From: a virus
Direction: 5' to 3' (one strand)
DNA: 64,000 nucleotides
IMG/VR virus record: IMGVR_UViG_3300027833_000021
Span: 32,001-96,000 of that record
In this document: one piece after another, positions 3,070-54,049 of the stretch
How positions within the stretch are numbered: the first letter of the stretch is position 1
Layout: each line of letters begins with the position of its first letter
The notes under the pieces: model-generated
What the model was told of the DNA's origin: nothing
What the model saw: the letters and a program-made list of their open reading frames with translations, nothing else
Database searches by the model: none
Position numbers and translations under genes: made by a program

Positions 3070-3098
3070 AAAAAGCCCTCTTTATGAGGGCTTTTTTT
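3070..3098 (+). terminator. Intrinsic terminator GCCCTC-TTTAT-GAGGGC-T7
   Basis: GC hairpin plus U-tract; same hairpin at 53701. Confidence 0.9.
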
Positions 3099-3128
3099 AT
3101 GTCTAAACATATCCTTTTAATCTTTTTA

Positions 3129-45991: not shown

Positions 45992-46691
45992 GATTGCCTT
46001 TGTAGGCGATAGTTTTTGTTCAGAATTTCCAGAGTTAGAATTCTGGACTTCTAGGACATCAGATATGATTTCTGACTATCCCGCATGGACTACAATGCTC
46101 TTAGAAGAATACAATGCCACTGCTATTCAAAAAGGTATTAGAGGAGATTGTTTATTTCATGCATTTCAGAAATTACTTGAAGTCATAGATGATGCAGACT
46201 ATATAATAATCTGTGTAACTGAACCGCGAAGATTAGCAAACTCTAGTAAAATTCCCATGACTATTACTATCGCTGAAGACCCAGAATCTCGTTATTTCAT
46301 CAGCAAAGAAGTCACATCCTCATCTCTAATGTATTATAAGAATCTTATGAACTACGATTTTCATAGAGTAGCACAACGAGGAATTATAACACAGATGGAC
46401 CAATTGTTATTAAAAAAGAAGAAAAAATGTATATGGTTTCCTTGTTTCTACAATTCAACATCAAGTGACGTACTAGAAAAGCCAGGTGACATATTACAAG
46501 AAGACTATCAAATTACAAGCGGACCATATGGTACAAAACCTCTGTATGAGTTTGCAGAACTTCACACTCCTATGATACCACATAGTAATCATTTTTCGAA
46601 AGAACAGAACGAAAATATGTTTAAACTTATAAAAGATATAATAGATACGGATGCATTCTTGCCAAGAGAACTAAATATGAGTGTAATATAA
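45963..46691 (+). CDS. SGNH-like hydrolase
   Basis: FVGDSFC; NHFS near the C-terminus. Confidence 0.6.
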   Translation: MEKLNALGSKIAFVGDSFCSEFPELEFWTSRTSDMISDYPAWTTMLLEEYNATAIQKGIRGDCLFHAFQKLLEVIDDADYIIICVTEPRRLANSSKIPMTITIAEDPESRYFISKEVTSSSLMYYKNLMNYDFHRVAQRGIITQMDQLLLKKKKKCIWFPCFYNSTSSDVLEKPGDILQEDYQITSGPYGTKPLYEFAELHTPMIPHSNHFSKEQNENMFKLIKDIIDTDAFLPRELNMSVI

Positions 46692-47980
46692 TGAGTGAAA
46701 CTGAACCAATGAAACAAAAAGAAATCATATCTAAGACATATTGTCCACTTCCGTTTAATCACTTATACGTACATCCCACTAATATGGCAAGTGTATGTTG
46801 TATATATCGTAAAACTACAGAGAAAATGAGTCTACCTAATATCAAAGATTATAAAAATCTAGGTGACCACTTACATCATCCATTCATAAAAGACATACAA
46901 CAAAAGATGTTGAAAGGCGAGAAAGTCGATGGGTGTGCTACTTGTTATCATGCAGAAGAACATGGCTTTCAAAGTTTCCGAGAGAGAGAAATACAAACTT
47001 GGCATGTTGAAACTGGCCGTGACTTCACTCCGCCAGACTTAAACAATCCAAAACTAGAATACATGGAAATGACATTTGGCAACTATTGCAATCTAGCGTG
47101 TAGAACGTGTGACAGTAACCTAAGTCACAGTTGGATAGATGACGAAGAAGAACTTGTAAAACGTGGACTACTTAATGCACTACACAACGCATCCCCTACA
47201 TCAATGCCATTATTGCAGTCAAAAAGAATTAACATTGAAAAAGAATGGCATTCAGATGATTTCAAAGATTTACAATACATAAAGATAACTGGTGGTGAAC
47301 CAATGTTACATCCTGACTTTCCTAAATTTATGGCACAGTTAGAACAAGAAAACGTTCATTGTTTCATATTTACTAATGCAAGTTGGGTACCTAAACAAAG
47401 AATATTTGACATGATAAAGAACTTTAAATTTCTTCAGGTGTTTATGAGCGTAGACGGCACGGGCGATGTACAAGAATACATGAGGCATAATGCTAAGTGG
47501 AAAACTACAGACAAATCAGTAAGAGCATGGATGCAATTTGCATCCTCTTCAAGTAATGTTCAGATAGCGTGGGCACCAACATGGTCACTAATGAATGCAC
47601 CTTATTTTGTAGAAACATGTAATTGGTGGTTAGGACTAACAGAAGAAATTAAACAGCCAACTAGTTGGGGATGTCTTAAGACAAATTTCGTATATGGTCC
47701 ATCAATTTATCAAATGAGTTTATTGCCAAATGAGGCAAAAGAAAAACTAAAAATACAAGCATTAGAGTATATTGAAGAATTAAAAAATAAAGATATCGAT
47801 GGTAAAGAACATATAATTGAGATGTCAGAAGCATATATAAGCAACTTTGATAATGATAATAAAAAAAGTGACTTAGAAGACTATCACAAAATGACAGATG
47901 CATTAGATGAAATGCGTGGACAATCCACAGAGAAGATGTTACCACTAACTTATGAAGCAATGCACAATCGCAACAAATAG
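46691..47980 (+). CDS. Radical SAM protein with N-terminal Twitch/SPASM-like domain (paralog A)
   Basis: CNLACRTC, GGEP, SVDG; N-terminal C..CC..C..C. Confidence 0.9.
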   Translation: MSETEPMKQKEIISKTYCPLPFNHLYVHPTNMASVCCIYRKTTEKMSLPNIKDYKNLGDHLHHPFIKDIQQKMLKGEKVDGCATCYHAEEHGFQSFREREIQTWHVETGRDFTPPDLNNPKLEYMEMTFGNYCNLACRTCDSNLSHSWIDDEEELVKRGLLNALHNASPTSMPLLQSKRINIEKEWHSDDFKDLQYIKITGGEPMLHPDFPKFMAQLEQENVHCFIFTNASWVPKQRIFDMIKNFKFLQVFMSVDGTGDVQEYMRHNAKWKTTDKSVRAWMQFASSSSNVQIAWAPTWSLMNAPYFVETCNWWLGLTEEIKQPTSWGCLKTNFVYGPSIYQMSLLPNEAKEKLKIQALEYIEELKNKDIDGKEHIIEMSEAYISNFDNDNKKSDLEDYHKMTDALDEMRGQSTEKMLPLTYEAMHNRNK

Positions 47981-47993
47981 ATGGGAGTAATAT

Positions 47994-49286
47994 ATGGATA
48001 ATAAATGGCAATTACATACAGGTCTAGGTGACCCGACATGTGCATTAAAATTTGGTTGGTCTACTGTTAAATTATCAGAAGGAACATCTGCATCTTGTCA
48101 TAGAACTGCATACGATAAAGTACCTGAGGGAGACTTTGGTAAATTTCATCACACTCCTACTCAGATGGAAACTCGTAAACTTATGTTGGAAGGTAAATGG
48201 CCGGGTCAAGGCTGTGAGTACTGCAAGAAAATAGAAGATGCTGGTGGTATATCAGATAGAATGGAGGCTAACTCCATGGACCCTAAACACTTTAGTACAA
48301 CTGAATGTAAAATATTAGAAGTATATTTTAGTAATGTATGTAATCAAGCATGTATATATTGCTCTCCTGAATATAGTTCTATGTGGGAAGTTGAGAATAA
48401 GAAGTTCGAACTAGAAATGGTTGTTAATCCTCATGGAAAAGAATTCCTTAAAGACAAAGATAATTTCAAAAGAATAAAGAGTGAGTTTTGGGAATGGATG
48501 GAAAACAACCATAAGCCATTAGTTAAATATAATATACTAGGAGGTGAACCATTCTTTCAACCAGAACTCGCAGAGAATTTAGACTTCTTTGAAACTCATC
48601 CTTGTCCTAATTTGGAATTAACAATAATTAGCAACCTCAAGTGCCCAGAGAAAAGATTTCGTGCAACAATGGATAAGATAGATAATCTTCGTGCCATTGG
48701 TCATCTAGGACAGGTAAGAATTACTGGTTCTATTGATTGTTGGGGGGATGCATTTGAATACACACGTTGGGGTGCAAAGTTAGAAGAGTTCGACAGAAAT
48801 CTTGGTATACTTATGTTAGATTATAAAGAGATAGAAGTTGAAATACATATGACTATGGGTGCTACAACAATAAAAGATATGCCAGAACTAATAACAAGAT
48901 TAAACTATTGGAATAATCTAAGAAATCCATTAAGAGAAAAGTCATCTCAAGTAGAGTCGGGTGTGAAAGAGAATAGTCATATTAAACCTATACATCTCAA
49001 TGCTAACTTTGTTGTATGGCCGCATCATATGGCACCTGACATATTCCCTACAGGATTCTTTAAAGAAGATTTTAAAAGGGTAAATGCAGAGTTAGACAAA
49101 GGCATCTGGCGCCGTACTTTGTATGAATTGATGAAAGGATATGAAAAGTCAATAGATAATTCACCGGGTGATTATGAACTAATAAATAAACTAAAAGAAG
49201 ATTTAACAAATATAGACAGAAGAAGAGGATGTGATTCGAAGAAAACATTCCCTTGGTTATATAAATTTAATGAAAAAAATACATGA
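47994..49286 (+). CDS. Radical SAM protein
   Basis: CNQACIYC, GGEPF, SID; N-terminal C..CH..C..C. Confidence 0.9.
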   Translation: MDNKWQLHTGLGDPTCALKFGWSTVKLSEGTSASCHRTAYDKVPEGDFGKFHHTPTQMETRKLMLEGKWPGQGCEYCKKIEDAGGISDRMEANSMDPKHFSTTECKILEVYFSNVCNQACIYCSPEYSSMWEVENKKFELEMVVNPHGKEFLKDKDNFKRIKSEFWEWMENNHKPLVKYNILGGEPFFQPELAENLDFFETHPCPNLELTIISNLKCPEKRFRATMDKIDNLRAIGHLGQVRITGSIDCWGDAFEYTRWGAKLEEFDRNLGILMLDYKEIEVEIHMTMGATTIKDMPELITRLNYWNNLRNPLREKSSQVESGVKENSHIKPIHLNANFVVWPHHMAPDIFPTGFFKEDFKRVNAELDKGIWRRTLYELMKGYEKSIDNSPGDYELINKLKEDLTNIDRRRGCDSKKTFPWLYKFNEKNT

Positions 49287-50542
49287 AACAAAAAGAAATC
49301 ATATCTAAGACATATTGTCCACTTCCCTTTAATCACTTATATGTACATCCCACAAATATGGCAAGTGTATGCTGTGCATTTCGTAAAGAGGGCGAGAGAG
49401 AAAGTTTACCTAATATCAAAGAGTATAAGAATTTAGGTGACCACTTAAAGCATCCATTCATAAAAGACATACAACAAAAGATGTTGAAAGGCGAGAAAGT
49501 AGATGGATGTGCTACGTGCTATTATGCTGAAGAGCATGGATATGAGAGTATGCGTGAGAAAGAAATAGCAACTTGGCATATTGAAACATTTCGAAACTTT
49601 ACCCCACCTGATTTAGAAAATCCAAAACTAGAATTTTTAGAAATGACATTTGGCAACTATTGTAATCTAGCATGTAGAACATGTCATAGTGACCTAAGTC
49701 ATAGTTGGATTGAAGACGAAGAAGAACTCGTAAAGCGTGGTCTTATGGGTAAAGTAGGTAATAAGAGAATTAATATTGAAAAAGAATGGCACCCAGACGA
49801 TTTTAAAGATTTACAGTATATAAAGATAACTGGCGGTGAGCCTATGTTACATCCTGATTTTCCTAAGTTTATGGCACAGTTAGAACAAAAAAATGTTTAC
49901 TGTTTCATATTTACTAATGCAAGTTGGGTGCCAAAGAAAAGAATCTTTGATATGTTAAAAGACTTTAAATTCCTTCAAGTATTTCTTAGTGTAGATGGCA
50001 CTGGTGATGTACAAGAGTATATGAGACATAACGCTAAGTGGGACACAACACACAAATCAGTAAGAACATGGATGGAATGGTCAGTCACTATGCCTAATGT
50101 TCAGGTAGCATGGGCGCCAACGTGGTCATTAATGAATGCAAGTTACTTCGTAGAAACATGTAATTGGTGGTTAGGACTAACAGAAGAAATACTGAGAGAT
50201 AAAAAACCTGGTGCAGACTGGAACTTAGTAAAAACAAATTTCGTATACGGTCCATCAATCTATCAAATGAGTTTATTACCAAAGAAGACAAAAGAAAAAC
50301 TAAAAATAGATGTACAAGAGTATATCGAAGAATTAAAGAATGGTGATATTGGCACATCTGAACTTATAATTGAGATGGCAGAAGCATATGTTCAATTCTT
50401 TGATAAAAACGAAAGCAATATGAATAAAAATTTTACAGACTATCACAAAATGACAGATGCATTAGATGAAATGCGTGGGCAATCTCTTAAGAAAATGATA
50501 CCATTGACCTATAAAGCAATGTACGAAATAGAGAAAAAGTAA
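49283..50542 (+). CDS. Radical SAM protein with N-terminal Twitch/SPASM-like domain (paralog B)
   Basis: CNLACRTC; close paralog of 46691. Confidence 0.9.
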   Translation: MKQKEIISKTYCPLPFNHLYVHPTNMASVCCAFRKEGERESLPNIKEYKNLGDHLKHPFIKDIQQKMLKGEKVDGCATCYYAEEHGYESMREKEIATWHIETFRNFTPPDLENPKLEFLEMTFGNYCNLACRTCHSDLSHSWIEDEEELVKRGLMGKVGNKRINIEKEWHPDDFKDLQYIKITGGEPMLHPDFPKFMAQLEQKNVYCFIFTNASWVPKKRIFDMLKDFKFLQVFLSVDGTGDVQEYMRHNAKWDTTHKSVRTWMEWSVTMPNVQVAWAPTWSLMNASYFVETCNWWLGLTEEILRDKKPGADWNLVKTNFVYGPSIYQMSLLPKKTKEKLKIDVQEYIEELKNGDIGTSELIIEMAEAYVQFFDKNESNMNKNFTDYHKMTDALDEMRGQSLKKMIPLTYKAMYEIEKK

Positions 50543-51040: not shown

Positions 51041-51982
51041 ATGAGAACAGCACCAAAATATCCAGTCTATATTATCTCTAAAACAAGACACGAATCTATG
51101 TTTACTTCTAGGTCATTGTCTCGTATGAAGATACATCATTATATTGCCATTGAGCCACAAGACTATGACAATTACGATAAATGTTTAGATACTTTTAATA
51201 TTAGAGACTATGTTACACTATTAGTATTGCCATTCAGTAATCACGGTGATGGTCCTGGTAGAGCAAGAAATTGGTGTTGGGACCACTCTATGGAAGTCCT
51301 AGGCGCTAAAAGACATTGGGTAATGGATGATAACATACAGGACTTCTACAGATTACATAACAATCAACGTATTCGTGTTGAGTCAGGTGTAATGTTTAAG
51401 ATTATGGAAGACTTCTGTGATAGATATGATAATGTAAAGATTGCAGGTCCACAGTATCGTTTCTTCTGTGCGGCAGACCAATCATATCCACCTTATGTAA
51501 AGAACACAAGAATTTATTCTACACTTCTAATCGAAAACGATTGTAAGTATAGATGGCGAGGCAGATATAATGAAGACACTGATATCTGTTTGAGAGTTCT
51601 TAAAGATGGTGATTGCACTGTACAGTTTAATGCGTTCTTACAAGGTAAGTGTGCAACTCAAACAGTCAAAGGTGGTAATACCGAAGAATTCTATCATGCT
51701 GAATTTACGGAAAATGAAGACTTTAAAAAGACAGGTTATAATACTGACGGTACAATCAACAAGTCACAGATGTTAGCAGACATGCATCCAGACGTTGCAA
51801 AAGTAGTTTGGAAATATGGAAGATGGCATCATTATGTAGATTACCTGCCATTTAAAAAGAATATGTTATCTATCAAAGAAGGCACTCATTTGCCAGAAGG
51901 TATAAATAACTACGGACTAGAACTAAGAAAATATTCTAGTGTCCAAGATTTTGAAATAGAACAGAGAGTAACAAGCAAATAA
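51041..51982 (+). CDS. TET-associated/GREB1-like glycosyltransferase (putative DNA-base GT)
   Basis: PVYIISK.R, ARNWCWD, WVMDDNI, YNEDTD.CLRVL. Confidence 0.75.
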   Translation: MRTAPKYPVYIISKTRHESMFTSRSLSRMKIHHYIAIEPQDYDNYDKCLDTFNIRDYVTLLVLPFSNHGDGPGRARNWCWDHSMEVLGAKRHWVMDDNIQDFYRLHNNQRIRVESGVMFKIMEDFCDRYDNVKIAGPQYRFFCAADQSYPPYVKNTRIYSTLLIENDCKYRWRGRYNEDTDICLRVLKDGDCTVQFNAFLQGKCATQTVKGGNTEEFYHAEFTENEDFKKTGYNTDGTINKSQMLADMHPDVAKVVWKYGRWHHYVDYLPFKKNMLSIKEGTHLPEGINNYGLELRKYSSVQDFEIEQRVTSK

Positions 51983-51996
51983 AATAATAATAATTA

Positions 51997-52072
51997 GCCG
52001 ATGTAGCACAGTTGGTAGTGCAACTGATTTGTAATCAGTAGGTCGGGAGTTCGAGTCTCTCCATCGGCACCA
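51997..52072 (+). tRNA. tRNA-Thr(UGU)
   Basis: Cloverleaf; anticodon loop TT-TGT-AA; CCA encoded. Confidence 0.95.
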
Positions 52073-52082
52073 TATTTAAAAT

Positions 52083-52156
52083 GCGGCTATGATGTAAGGG
52101 TAGCCTCCCTCGTTGCCAACGAGAGTGTCCGAGTTCGAATCTCGGTAGCCGCTCCA
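52083..52156 (+). tRNA. tRNA-Gly(GCC)
   Basis: Cloverleaf; TT-GCC-AA; ends TCCA. Confidence 0.93.
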
Positions 52157-52162
52157 GTTCGT

Positions 52163-52238
52163 TCCTCAGTAGTTCAGTTGGTAGAACACCGGACTGTTAA
52201 TCCGTATGTCGCTAGTTCGAGCCTAGCCTGAGGAGCCA
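52163..52238 (+). tRNA. tRNA-Asn(GUU)
   Basis: Cloverleaf; CT-GTT-AA; ends GCCA. Confidence 0.95.
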
Positions 52239-52244
52239 AAATTC

Positions 52245-52334
52245 GGAGAAGTGGGAGAGTGGTTTAATCCACCGGTCTTGAAAACCGGCGTACCTTTATC
52301 GGTACCGTGAGTTCGAATCTCACCTTCTCCGCCA
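52245..52334 (+). tRNA. tRNA-Ser(UGA)
   Basis: Long variable arm; CT-TGA-AA; ends GCCA. Confidence 0.95.
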
Positions 52335-52581: not shown

Positions 52582-52641
52582 TTGACATCTCCTGGAATTA
52601 TGTTATATTAATTACATAATCAATAGAGAGAACGAATCACA
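52582..52641 (+). promoter_or_regulatory. Early promoter cassette TTGACA-16-TATATT
   Basis: Shares TGTTATATTAATTACATAATCA with the cassette at 52838. Confidence 0.8.
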
Positions 52642-52833
52642 ATGAACATTTTTACTTTTACTGCATATGGTGAAGAATTTACAGCACCAGCGGAAGCAGG
52701 ACGTGACCTATTCCGAGAAGCAACAAATGAACTTTTATGGCAAAATCCTGAGTACAAACCAGGCATGTGGGTAGAATCATATAATAACACTTATATCTGG
52801 ACAGAAGGTGCAATGCCTAAGATTTTTGAGTAA
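52642..52833 (+). CDS. Early hypothetical protein
   Basis: Own promoter and GAGAG RBS. Confidence 0.7.
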   Translation: MNIFTFTAYGEEFTAPAEAGRDLFREATNELLWQNPEYKPGMWVESYNNTYIWTEGAMPKIFE

Positions 52834-52837
52834 AAAC

Positions 52838-52896
52838 TTGACAAACCAGCGAATCGTGTTATATTAATTACATAATCAGAGAAAAGAGAGAATCAC
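52838..52896 (+). promoter_or_regulatory. Early promoter cassette TTGACA-16-TATATT with CGAATCG in the spacer
   Basis: Repeat of the 52582 cassette. Confidence 0.8.
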
Positions 52897-53142
52897 ATGT
52901 CAATCATATATTCAACATTAACAGACTCAATTACTAAAGCAACTTTCGACCCAGACAACTGGAATGCTGATGGTAGCATTAACTGGAGTTTTGTTGACTC
53001 AGATGCGTACCACGAATGTTTTAAATTGTATGCAAGTGTTGAGGGTTTCTACCGTGATTTTAACGAGATTGTTAACTGTATAATCGCAGAAATGCGTGAA
53101 GAAGCAGATGCAGAAGCACGTTTTGAGATTGTAAATTCTTAG
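52897..53142 (+). CDS. Early hypothetical protein (DG.INW.FVDSD motif)
   Basis: Own promoter. Confidence 0.7.
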   Translation: MSIIYSTLTDSITKATFDPDNWNADGSINWSFVDSDAYHECFKLYASVEGFYRDFNEIVNCIIAEMREEADAEARFEIVNS

Positions 53143-53150
53143 TCAAAAAC

Positions 53151-53179
53151 TTGACAGATTCGTGAATCTGTGGTATAAT
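53151..53179 (+). promoter_or_regulatory. Promoter TTGACA-17-TATAAT with palindrome ACAGATTC-GT-GAATCTGT
   Basis: Consensus hexamers; inverted repeat in the spacer. Confidence 0.85.
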
Positions 53180-53562: not shown

Positions 53563-53576
53563 TAAAATTATGAAAT

Positions 53577-53668
53577 TAATTACAGAAAACTTTTACTCTT
53601 GGTGTTTTATGCATGTATTAGGCAGTCTGCCGTATGAATACATGCGTAACGAGGGTCAGATGTAATTA
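53577..53668 (+). ncRNA. Long hairpin RNA candidate
   Basis: TAATTACA/TGTAATTA and TTATGCATGTATT/AATACATGCGTAA stems. Confidence 0.4.
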
Positions 53669-53700
53669 TAATAATAAGAAACTATTAATAATAACTTCAG

Positions 53701-53724
53701 GCCCTCTTTATGAGGGCTTTTTTT
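53701..53724 (+). terminator. Intrinsic terminator (same hairpin as 3070)
   Basis: GCCCTC-TTTAT-GAGGGC-T7. Confidence 0.9.
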
Positions 53725-53726
53725 AT

Positions 53727-53802
53727 GACTACACTTCGCCTTACTGCAATAAGGTGTCTTTGCAGAGACAGAGGCCTCGAAAGGGTCAAAGATAGTGTAG
53801 TT
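53727..53802 (+). ncRNA. 76-nt four-way-junction RNA with complementary loops
   Basis: 9-bp closing stem; three hairpins; loops CTGCAA and TTGCAG. Confidence 0.6.
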
Positions 53803-53815
53803 TTAAAAGAATAAC

Positions 53816-53889
53816 GTTGGCGTGGCAGAATGATTATGCGACGGATTGCAAATCCGTTTATATAGGTTTGATTCCTATCGCCAACTCCA
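53816..53889 (+). tRNA. tRNA-Cys(GCA)
   Basis: Cloverleaf; TT-GCA-AA; U73; CCA; T-loop variant TTTGATT. Confidence 0.9.
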
Positions 53890-53891
53890 AT

Positions 53892-53965
53892 ATCGGTGAA
53901 GTGTTTCGGTAGCACGACAGTCTCCAAAACTGTAAGGCGGGGTTCGACTCCCTGCACCGATGCCA
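53892..53965 (+). tRNA. tRNA-Trp(CCA)
   Basis: Cloverleaf; CT-CCA-AA; ends GCCA. Confidence 0.92.
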
Positions 53966-54049
53966 CTTGACATTAGGTATTCAATGTGTTATTATAATAG
54001 AGTAGTAATAATGCTACAACACACAGAAACATACACACAGGAGAAGTAA

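What the first reader, a model, noticed from the sequence alone, without database searches (positions are those of the whole stretch)
53727..53802. tRNA-sized four-way-junction RNA with two mutually complementary loops next to tRNA-Cys
Seen: P1 GACTACACT/AGTGTAGTT; P2 CGCCTTA-ctgcaa-TAAGGTG; P3 (TG)TCT-ttgcag-AGA(CA); P4 GGCCT-cgaaa-GGGTC. The loops CTGCAA and TTGCAG are exact reverse complements, and both display GCA, the anticodon of the tRNA-Cys 13 nt downstream. There is no T-loop or CCA, so it is not a tRNA. Known: phi29 pRNA oligomerises by hand-in-hand pairing of two loops. Inference: a self-assembling kissing-loop RNA, a double anticodon decoy (for nucleases or CysRS), or a new processing ribozyme. 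An alternative TCTTTG/CAAAGA helix suggests conformational switching.
Basis: partly seen in the sequence, partly recalled or inferred. Interest (0 to 1): 0.75.

Follow-up and report, generated by a model that had tools for sequence, protein, structure and literature searches.

The report
Relocatable folded RNA in phage spacers
The 76-base cloverleaf-shaped RNA is real and strongly conserved in uncultured marine phages, where it always fills the cut-out spacer of a tRNA-type precursor (usually the middle of a split tmRNA gene, here the gap between a tryptophan-sensing stop signal and the tRNA genes); it is probably a small phage RNA of unknown job and has no specific link to tRNA-Cys.

Summary
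Observation confirmed. Window 53727-53802 (+) folds into a four-way junction. Homologues keep 99-100% of its pairs, with compensatory changes in P1 and P4. The two complementary hexaloops are unchanged in 178 of 179 copies, although the searches left them free.

It matches no Rfam family, even at E<=10, and is absent from 185,579 prokaryote species genomes.

It occurs once per phage record, in one of two settings:
- In T4-like marine myophages it is essentially the whole 82-nt intervening sequence of a phage-encoded permuted, alpha-type tmRNA gene.
- In this window's larger phages it lies between a leader-peptide attenuator with a Trp codon and a tRNA cluster that always contains tRNA-Trp.

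tRNA-Cys comes first in only 5 of 52 such loci, so the GCA/tRNA-Cys link is incidental.

In both settings the flanks pair and extend P1, and an RNase P site follows within 5-16 nt. The core is better conserved between lineages than the tmRNA or tRNA-Trp.

Best reading: a relocatable passenger RNA freed by tRNA-processing enzymes, acting through its two invariant loops. Its job is unknown.

Self-assembly, decoy and ribozyme ideas remain untested.

The scan had already noted the attenuator and other tmRNA-spacer cargo RNAs on other DNA.

The parts
53570..53665 (+). Short leader ORF (31 aa plus stop) with adjacent Trp and Cys codons at 53600-53605. It starts 7 nt after the stop of the upstream 116-aa ORF.
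   Evidence: Read. Homologous or analogous 18-31 aa ORFs with an invariant Trp codon precede the terminator in 51 of 52 distinct tRNA-context loci.
53651..53657 (+). GAGGGTC near the end of the leader ORF. It is the candidate antiterminator strand, complementary to the terminator's 5' arm (53700-53706).
   Evidence: With the terminator's 3' arm left out, the minimum-energy fold pairs this stretch with 53700-53706. The same kind of pairing appears in 47 of 52 loci, with GGGG/CCCC in the main type and GAGGG/CCCTC in the window type.
53699..53726 (+). Intrinsic terminator (attenuator): an 8-bp G+C-rich hairpin followed by a run of seven T.
   Evidence: Terminator scan and folds. An identical terminator copy without the element lies at window 3075-3100.
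53719..53725 (+). P0, 5' strand. The terminator's U-tract pairs with the A-rich run just after the element.
   Evidence: Minimum-energy fold. Consensus fold of 10 relatives gives 8 pairs, nearly all kept.
53727..53802 (+). The 76-nt four-way-junction element. P1 is 53727-35 with 53794-802. P2 is 53737/8-43 with 53750-55/6, loop CTGCAA at 53744-49. P3 is 53756/7-61 with 53765-69, loop TTGCAG at 53760-65. P4 is 53773-77 with 53783-87. Conserved AAG lies in the P4-P1 joiner (53789-91).
   Evidence: The covariance model scores 104 bits on + and 20 bits on -. Many G-U pairs fit the + strand only.
53804..53810 (+). P0, 3' strand (TAAAAGA), pairing with the terminator's U-tract.
53816..53889 (+). tRNA-Cys (GCA), the first RNase P site downstream, 13 nt after P1.
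   Evidence: ARAGORN; Rfam tRNA model, 61.9 bits.
53892..53965 (+). tRNA-Trp (CCA), the tRNA present downstream of the element in all 52 distinct tRNA-context loci.

Best explanation
The element is a member of a conserved, phage-only family of about 76-nt structured RNAs. It behaves as a self-contained, relocatable module.

Shown:
- It is a four-way junction closed by P1 and carries two invariant, mutually complementary hexaloops (CUGCAA and UUGCAG).
- There is one copy per phage record.
- It always sits in the stretch that lies between an upstream RNA 3' end and a downstream RNase P site.
- In T4-like marine myophages it is the intervening sequence of a permuted tmRNA gene. Only 1 nt separates it from the CCA end, and 5 nt separate it from the first G of the coding piece.
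- In this window's lineage it lies between the terminator of a Trp leader-peptide attenuator and the tRNA-Trp/Cys genes.

Inferred:
- It is transcribed with these precursors.
- It is cut free when the flanking stem and the RNase P site are processed.
- It then works on its own as a small RNA whose functional face is the pair of invariant loops on P2 and P3. These loops could contact each other, another copy, or a partner that holds UGCA.
- The tmRNA gene and the tRNA leader serve only as carriers.

Its molecular target is not known.
For: Real, conserved RNA structure:
- Pairing is kept at 99-100%, with compensatory changes in P1 and P4.
- The G-U pattern fits the + strand only.

Selection on the P2-P3 face:
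- 25 positions never vary in 52 distinct sequences, while the P3-P4 joiner, the P4 loop and P1 vary freely.
- The loops are invariant in 178 of 179 copies, found with the loops left free in the search pattern.
- The core is 86-93% identical between lineages. The tmRNA pieces are 61-80% identical and tRNA-Trp 76%.

Independence from its carrier:
- The same module, including a near-identical P1, occurs in two settings: AAGCACAYTA in group C tmRNA spacers and in tRNA-context loci L022/L031/L056.
- Records with the tRNA-context copy carry tmRNA genes whose spacers lack P2-P3. L079 keeps only the P1 and joiner-like ends; L024 and L080 have short hairpins.
- The 91%-complete T4-like record G001 has the element only in its tmRNA. 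Its tRNA-Trp has no element in front.

Transcription is assured in the tmRNA setting, where strong promoters lie upstream of the genes.

Excision architecture:
- The flanks pair in both settings, with changes on both sides between the settings.
- The next mature 5' end lies 5 nt away in the tmRNA setting and 9-16 nt away in the tRNA setting.

Phage-only: there are 0 matches in 185,579 species genomes.

Precedent: one permuted tmRNA holds an intact tRNA-Ala gene in its intervening sequence (PMC11915505).
Against: - A discrete, stable RNA has therefore not been shown.
- Invariant loops give no covariation, so neither loop-loop pairing nor a trans target is demonstrated.
- A purely cis role in processing would also place the element exactly where it is found.
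- Part of the sequence identity between lineages could reflect recent transfer and not constraint. However, the neighbouring P1, P4 loop and joiner positions have diverged.
- No candidate protein or RNA partner was identified.
Confidence: 0.5

Rival explanations
1. It is a cis-acting processing or insulation module. The compact junction on a long closing stem (P0 plus P1, about 18-22 bp together with the neighbouring helix) presents the flanking ends to host nucleases such as RNase III, RNase E or RNase P. It would also keep the upstream 3' end and the downstream tRNA-like 5' end from misfolding. After that it is discarded.
For: - It always lies exactly between a 3' end (CCA or the terminator U-tract) and an RNase P site.
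- The flanks pair in both settings, with changes on both sides between them.
- Other phage tmRNA spacers also have a closing stem that starts right after CCA.
Against: - tmRNA genes of related phages work with 29-54 nt spacers that lack P2-P3.
- The tRNA-Trp of G001 needs no such element.
- A scaffold role does not explain 25 invariant positions, or two invariant loops, while P1 and P4 drift.
- One copy per record, in either of two carriers, fits a function that is independent of the carrier.
Confidence: 0.22
2. It is a self-assembling kissing-loop RNA. The CUGCAA loop of one copy pairs with the UUGCAG loop of another (hand in hand, as in phi29 pRNA), or the P3 hairpins convert to an extended duplex. 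This would give dimers or rings.
For: - The loops are exact complements in all copies.
- The loop duplex alone is predicted at -6.1 kcal/mol.
- The 14-nt P3 hairpin is a near-palindrome, and the co-fold of two copies is 15 kcal/mol better than two monomers.
- P2 and P3 abut with no linker. By my reasoning this makes a full 6-bp kiss within one molecule sterically hard.
Against: - There is no covariation, because the loops never vary. In pRNA the loops covary and are not conserved in sequence (my knowledge).
- Both loops follow the pattern pyrimidine-UGCA-purine. Given a palindromic UGCA core, complementarity is then nearly automatic.
- The one natural variant (CTGTAA in L103) gives a U-G pair, which is uninformative.
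- Co-fold gains arise for any hairpin with a palindromic loop.
Confidence: 0.1
3. It is a decoy or partner for RNAs that display UGCA. Candidates are the anticodon loops of tRNA-Cys (U33-GCA-A37) and tRNA-Ala (UGC-A37), and the UUGCAA resume-codon region of alpha-type tmRNAs. It would act either by mimicry, for example against anticodon nucleases or synthetases, or by loop-loop pairing.
For: - Loop 1 contains UGCAA and loop 2 contains UUGCA, read directly from the sequence.
- The Rfam alpha_tmRNA consensus and several phage tmRNAs have UUGCAA at the resume codon.
- The element rides in tmRNA genes in most copies.
Against: - The loops are 6 nt long and not 7, and there is no tRNA body.
- tRNA-Cys is adjacent in a minority of loci only.
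- Group B phage tmRNAs carry AUGCAA or ACGCAA at that site, so the complementarity is not kept.
- UGCA is only four bases, so matches arise easily by chance.
Confidence: 0.07
4. It is a new self-cleaving ribozyme, or a cis-acting processive antitermination RNA of the HK022 put type (two adjacent hairpins that modify RNA polymerase). It would act on the untranslated tRNA or tmRNA transcript.
For: - It has a conserved junction with invariant A residues and two adjacent conserved hairpins.
- It lies at the head of untranslated RNA genes, just after a terminator in the tRNA setting.
Against: - No match to any ribozyme or other Rfam model, even at E<=10.
- The invariant positions sit in the hairpin loops and the P2 stem, not in internal loops of the kind known small ribozymes use.
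- In tmRNA genes it lies mid-gene.
- Other tRNA arrays of the same phage lack it, for example window 51997-52334.
Confidence: 0.07
5. It is a DNA-level site, such as an operator, a recombination site or a packaging site, built on the inverted repeat CTGCAA-N10-TTGCAG.
For: - There is a single copy per record, and a 22-bp block is perfectly conserved.
Against: - All single-sided changes keep G-U pairs on the + strand. On the other strand they would be A-C mismatches.
- The compensatory changes in P1 and P4 lie outside the repeat.
- It lies inside transcribed tmRNA genes.
Confidence: 0.03

Closest known systems
Intervening sequence of circularly permuted (two-piece) tmRNA genes (Keiler, Shapiro and Williams 2000; Sharkady and Williams 2004; Rfam RF01849 and RF04321; database paper PMC11915505)
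   Same: In 51 of 73 viral contigs the element is that spacer. It lies between the encoded CCA of the acceptor piece and the GGGG of the coding piece, and it must be cut out by tRNA-processing enzymes.
   Different: - Known spacers are treated as discarded and unconserved. The Rfam consensus spacer is about 47 nt and has no modelled structure.
- This spacer is a conserved four-way junction that evolves more slowly than the tmRNA itself.
- It also occurs outside any tmRNA gene, as in the window.
Permuted tmRNA with an intact tRNA-Ala gene in its intervening sequence (reported in PMC11915505)
   Same: A cloverleaf-shaped passenger RNA sits in the tmRNA spacer, placed so that the processing enzymes can release it.
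   Different: That passenger is a high-scoring tRNA. The element here has no T-loop, no D-loop, no 7-nt anticodon loop and no CCA, and it gets no tRNA score.
Phage T4 small stable RNAs of the tRNA cluster (species 1 and 2, rnaC/rnaD); cited from my own knowledge, not tested here
   Same: They are small structured RNAs of unknown function, co-transcribed with phage tRNAs in T4-like phages and released by tRNA-processing nucleases.
   Different: They have no detectable sequence or structure relationship to the element. The T4 RNAs are longer (about 120-140 nt) and are not known from tmRNA spacers.
   Same: A phage RNA with two mutually complementary loops.
   Different: - There is no Rfam match.
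- The architecture and size differ.
- pRNA loops covary between phages, whereas these loops are invariant.
- The carrier phage G001 is T4-like, with a Gp23-type capsid.
trp operon attenuator (trpL; Rfam RF00513) and the wider class of leader-peptide attenuators. This is the closest match for the upstream context, not for the element itself.
   Same: A short ORF with a Trp codon, alternative antiterminator and terminator pairings, and a downstream gene matched to that codon.
   Different: - The controlled genes are tRNAs (tRNA-Trp and neighbours), not biosynthetic enzymes.
- There is one Trp codon (sometimes two) and a two-structure design.
- The Rfam leader models score only sub-threshold: 17-22 bits, E 0.4-1.

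Membership tests
tRNA (RF00005) | Detected by tRNA covariance and heuristic models | tested here: not met
   ARAGORN finds six tRNAs in the window but not this stretch. Rfam tRNA gives no hit at gathering score or at E<=10.
tRNA (RF00005) | T-loop, D-loop, 7-nt anticodon loop, and a 7-bp acceptor stem abutting the T stem | tested here: not met
   The P4 loop is 5 nt and variable (CGAAA, CGTAA, CGCAA, CACGA, CACAA). Both candidate anticodon loops are 6 nt. A joiner of 5-6 nt separates P4 from P1.
Intervening sequence of permuted tmRNA genes | Lies between the CCA end of the acceptor piece and the 5' G run of the coding piece of a permuted tmRNA gene | tested here: not met
   In the window there is no tmRNA; the flanks are a terminator and tRNA-Cys. 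In 51 of 73 viral contigs the homologue does meet this test.
phi29-type pRNA (RF00044) | Match to the family model | tested here: not met
   No Rfam match at E<=10.
phi29-type pRNA (RF00044) | Two loops complementary between copies, with covariation between phages | tested here: inconclusive
   The loops are complementary in all copies but never vary, so there is no covariation for or against.
phi29-type pRNA (RF00044) | Forms rings on a packaging motor | not testable with these tools
   This needs biochemistry.
Known small self-cleaving ribozymes (hammerhead, twister, twister-sister, pistol, hatchet, HDV-like) | Match to the family models and their conserved cores | tested here: not met
   No Rfam match at E<=10 on either strand. 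The GAAA in the P4 loop is not conserved.
Known small self-cleaving ribozymes (hammerhead, twister, twister-sister, pistol, hatchet, HDV-like) | Self-cleavage | not testable with these tools
   This needs an in vitro assay.
Leader-peptide transcription attenuator (context at 53570-53726) | A short translated ORF with regulatory codons matching the controlled gene | tested here: met
   51 of 52 distinct loci have an 18-31 aa ORF with an invariant Trp codon, and tRNA-Trp lies downstream in 52 of 52. That the ORF is translated is inferred, from the Shine-Dalgarno sequence and promoter in most loci.
Leader-peptide transcription attenuator (context at 53570-53726) | Mutually exclusive antiterminator and terminator structures, with the ORF end inside the antiterminator | tested here: met
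   The G-run at the ORF end pairs with the terminator's 5' arm in 47 of 52 folds. It co-varies by type: GGGG/CCCC, GAGGG/CCCTC, TAGGGG/CCCTTA.
Leader-peptide transcription attenuator (context at 53570-53726) | Read-through responds to the supply of charged tRNA | not testable with these tools
   This needs coupled transcription-translation assays.

The most novel reading that the evidence does not exclude
The excised element is a trans-acting kissing-loop RNA. Its two invariant loops dock on UGCA-bearing loops of the translation apparatus. Candidate targets are the UUGCAA resume-codon region of alpha-type tmRNA (host or phage) and the anticodon loops of tRNA-Cys or tRNA-Ala. Through such contacts the phage would tune ribosome rescue or decoding during infection. 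tmRNA spacers and tRNA leaders would then be a general launch pad for phage small RNAs.
Probability: 0.1. Interest if true: 0.85.

Novelty: new variant of a known kind. Interest (0 to 1): 0.64.

Why it matters
- Spacers cut out of tRNA-type precursors are usually treated as waste. Here one spacer holds an RNA that is better conserved than the tmRNA and tRNA around it, and phages have moved it as a unit between a tmRNA gene and a tRNA leader.
- This points to a class of phage small RNAs that borrow the host's tRNA-processing enzymes for their own release.
- The carrier phages resemble published myophages of SAR11 and OM43, which are abundant ocean bacteria. That host link is inferred from the literature.
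- The family has a clear covariance model and could be added to RNA family databases.
- Its two invariant loops give a simple handle for experiments.
- The adjoining Trp leader-peptide attenuator, if it works as inferred, extends classical attenuation to tRNA genes.

Tried and rejected
- Second copy in the window: rejected. The match at 3075-3116 is only a duplicate of the terminator.
- Cultured phage relatives: none found. blastn of the locus and of a relative's tmRNA against 50,697 phage records gave only short tRNA or tmRNA matches. tblastn of a window protein was uninformative.
- Bacterial or archaeal copies: two scans of 185,579 species genomes with the core 22-mer, the second degenerate at two positions, found nothing.
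- Variants with other loops or stems:
  - The pattern with a free P2 3' strand gave one chance hit, L060.
  - Patterns with free loops gave only canonical loops, chance hits and one CTGTAA variant.
- Diverged copies in other phage tmRNA spacers: the covariance model finds none. There is one strong hit per locus.
- Glutamine riboswitch reported in the ssrA gene of phage Melnitz (PMC9004378): considered and rejected. That one is in the 3' domain, and no glnA-type model matches here.
- Protein coding: ORFs 53634-53795 (+) and 53697-53966 (-) overlap the element. I reject them because the same sequence lies inside tmRNA genes and its changes follow base pairs.
- Degenerate tRNA relic without function: rejected because of the strong conservation of P2-P3.

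Full report
**1. What is in the window**

It has a 9-bp closing helix and two adjacent hairpins with loops CTGCAA (53744-49) and TTGCAG (53760-65). A fourth hairpin carries loop CGAAA. tRNA-Cys starts 13 nt downstream and tRNA-Trp follows it.

- The minimum-energy fold is this four-way junction, at -24.8 kcal/mol with z -2.7.
- The pair of complementary hexamers at this spacing occurs once in the window and never in 100 shuffles.
- ARAGORN and Rfam find no tRNA or other family here, even at E<=10 on the isolated 93 nt.
- Immediately upstream is a strong intrinsic terminator (53699-53726).
- No promoter lies between that terminator and the tRNAs, so the element and the two tRNAs can only be made by read-through.

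**2. Relatives**

The window is part of a 115-kb IMG/VR virus record estimated at 31% complete.

- The core 22-mer occurs exactly in 57 viral contigs.
- Patterns anchored elsewhere, or with both loops left free, raised this to 73 viral copies.
That makes 179 copies and 52 distinct sequences.
- The contigs whose record names say so (TARA and ENA titles) are marine.
- Two scans of 185,579 bacterial and archaeal species genomes found none.
- No cultured phage in the held collection has it.

**3. Two settings**

*The tmRNA setting.* In 51 of 73 viral contigs the element lies between ...CTCCACCA and GGGG... of a circularly permuted, alphaproteobacterial-type tmRNA gene.

- ARAGORN calls these genes permuted tmRNAs, with tags such as ANDNF....ALAA. 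Rfam RF01849 and RF04321 match well above threshold.
- The intervening sequence there is 82 nt: 1 nt, then the 76-nt element, then 5 nt.
- These genes are in phage DNA. Their neighbours are endolysin, thymidylate-synthase-like and other phage genes.
- One such record (G001, 160 kb, 91% complete) has a T4-type Gp23 capsid gene.
- Two-piece tmRNA genes are published for this kind of marine myophage (Melnitz and pelagimyophages, PMC9004378). No paper I could find describes a conserved structure in their spacers.

*The tRNA setting.* In the other setting (22 viral contigs, 52 distinct loci in all) the element follows a terminator and precedes a tRNA cluster, as in the window. CheckV completeness figures imply genomes of about 300-370 kb for this lineage.

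**4. Structure is conserved, and on this strand**

- On 30 and on 52 distinct sequences, 99-100% of cells in P1-P4 form standard pairs. The figure is 33-50% when the partners are slid.
- P1 has four pairs with changes on both sides, and P4 has two.
- P2 and P3 change only by wobble: G-U to A-U, C-G to U-G, U-A to U-G, G-C to G-U.
- The many G-U pairs would be A-C mismatches on the other strand. So the structure belongs to the + strand RNA, the strand of the tRNAs and tmRNAs.
- The covariance model built from the alignment finds one strong hit per locus (98-109 bits) and nothing else.

**5. What is under selection**

- Twenty-five positions, comprising most of P2 and its loop, the P2-P3 junction and the P3 loop, never vary in 52 distinct sequences.
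- The P3-P4 joiner, the P4 loop, one joiner base and P1 take two to four states.
- Both loops are unchanged in 178 of 179 copies. The one exception (CTGTAA) still allows a U-G pair.
- Between lineages the core is 86-93% identical. The tmRNA pieces are 61-80% identical and tRNA-Trp 76%.
- Because the loops never vary, loop-loop pairing can be neither supported nor refuted by covariation.
- Both loops follow the pattern pyrimidine-UGCA-purine. With a palindromic core, complementarity is then close to automatic.

**6. It is a module, independent of its carrier**

- Each record has one copy.
- Records with the tRNA-setting copy also carry permuted tmRNA genes, but their spacers lack the element. 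L079 keeps a P1 like that of group C and a similar 3' joiner, with a different interior. L024 and L080 have short hairpins.
- Conversely, in G001 the tRNA-Trp is preceded by tRNA-Arg and a coding gene, with no element in front.
- One tRNA-setting subtype (L022, L031, L056) has a P1 nearly identical to that of group C tmRNA spacers. So the unit that moved included P1.

**7. Flanks**

In both settings the bases just outside P1 pair.

- In the tmRNA setting, ACCAA pairs with UUGAU.
- In the tRNA setting, the terminator's U-tract pairs with an A-rich run just after the element. In the window this is 53719-25 with 53804-10.
- Three of these five pairs change on both sides between the settings.
- The consensus fold of ten loci predicts an 8-bp helix below P1.
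- The window fold of 124 nt has z -5.0.
- The next mature 5' end is 5 nt away (tmRNA) or 9-16 nt away (tRNA).

This is the layout of an RNA that is cut out by cleavage in a flanking stem together with RNase P. That reading is an inference.

**8. The upstream context in the tRNA setting**

- In 51 of 52 distinct loci an 18-31 aa ORF ends 58-100 nt before P1 and contains an invariant Trp codon. Cys and Pro-Pro codons are often next to it.
- Most loci have a consensus promoter and a Shine-Dalgarno sequence in front of the ORF.
- A G-run in the last codons is kept at the nucleotide level under different amino acids (Trp-Gly, Gly-Gly, Arg-Gly, Glu-Gly). It pairs with the terminator's 5' arm in 47 of 52 folds made without the 3' arm.
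- This pairing co-varies by type. The window has GAGGGTC (53651-57) against GGCCCTC (53700-06).
- tRNA-Trp is downstream in 52 of 52 loci. It comes first in 47 and tRNA-Cys comes first in 5.
- This fits a leader-peptide attenuator for a tRNA-Trp operon.
- Two earlier follow-ups of this scan reached the same reading on other genomes.
- The window's leader is a different, longer version. It has no promoter of its own and follows a 116-aa ORF. Its Trp codon lies about 50 nt before the G-run, against about 15 nt in the example loci of the main type that I read. One close relative (L025) has a weaker G-run. The model is therefore less secure for the window itself.

**9. Interpretation**

The element is a conserved, relocatable RNA that occupies cut-out spacers. 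The link to tRNA-Cys is incidental.

I favour a passenger small RNA that is released by tRNA-processing enzymes and acts through the invariant P2-P3 face (confidence about 0.5). My main reasons:
- Related phages process their tmRNA and tRNA-Trp without it.
- Selection falls on the loops and on P2, not on the scaffold.

A purely cis processing role is the main rival (0.22). Self-assembly, UGCA-directed decoy or pairing, ribozyme or antitermination, and a DNA site rank lower.

Alternative folds lie within 3-4 kcal/mol. A conformational switch is therefore not excluded.

**10. Limits**

- No expression data could be obtained.
- Hosts are inferred only from the alpha-type tmRNA and from the literature.
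- IMG/VR and metagenome copies overlap, so copy counts are not independent.
- E-values from my covariance model are rough.

Noticed in passing
window 53570-53726, and loci such as L059, L086, L033, L024: Leader-peptide attenuator in front of the element and tRNA-Trp. It has a short ORF with an invariant Trp codon, and a G-run at the ORF end that pairs with the terminator's 5' arm. Most relatives have a dedicated promoter. Sub-threshold Rfam hits to Phe_leader and Trp_leader cover the same stretch.
   Followed up: yes
window 3075-3100 and 53701-53726: Two identical 26-nt copies of the same terminator hairpin plus T-run lie 50 kb apart. The first follows a large repeat-rich structural gene and has no element after it.
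   Followed up: partly
L024:4929-5274(-), L017:9568-9932(+), L079, L080: The larger phages that carry the element before tRNA-Trp also encode permuted alpha-type tmRNAs (tags ANDNYAPEMALAA, ANNNYAPEMALAA). Their spacers are only 29-54 nt. L079's spacer keeps a P1 like group C's but has a different interior, as if the cargo had been lost or swapped.
   Followed up: partly
L014:677-1099, L023, L032, L035 and others: In group B phages ARAGORN's tmRNA call overlaps a tRNA-Gly(TCC) by about 45 nt. The tmRNA 3' end is probably over-extended, or the two genes are tightly packed in one transcript.
   Followed up: no
L012:11250-11345: One tRNA-context locus has two tandem terminators before the element. 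Its leader ORF (MTTMMTHIQQICIRWFSEGRSVS) ends 100 nt upstream, and the downstream tRNAs are Trp, Cys, Met and Phe.
   Followed up: no
window 53756-53769: The P3 hairpin (GTCTTTGCAGAGAC) is a 14-nt near-palindrome. Two copies could form an extended duplex, as hairpins with palindromic loops do. The co-fold of two elements is 15 kcal/mol better than two monomers.
   Followed up: partly
window 52582-53179 and 53967-53995: A series of near-consensus sigma-70-type promoters (TTGACA, 16-17 nt spacer, TATAAT-like, often with TG) each drives a single small gene around the tRNA region. The tRNA-Cys/Trp pair itself has none.
   Followed up: no
window 46691-50542 and 58630-59991: Several radical SAM genes, two of them 86% identical at DNA level (repeat families D5, D6, D11 and D16), lie next to a glucosyltransferase-like gene at 51041-51982.
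   Followed up: no
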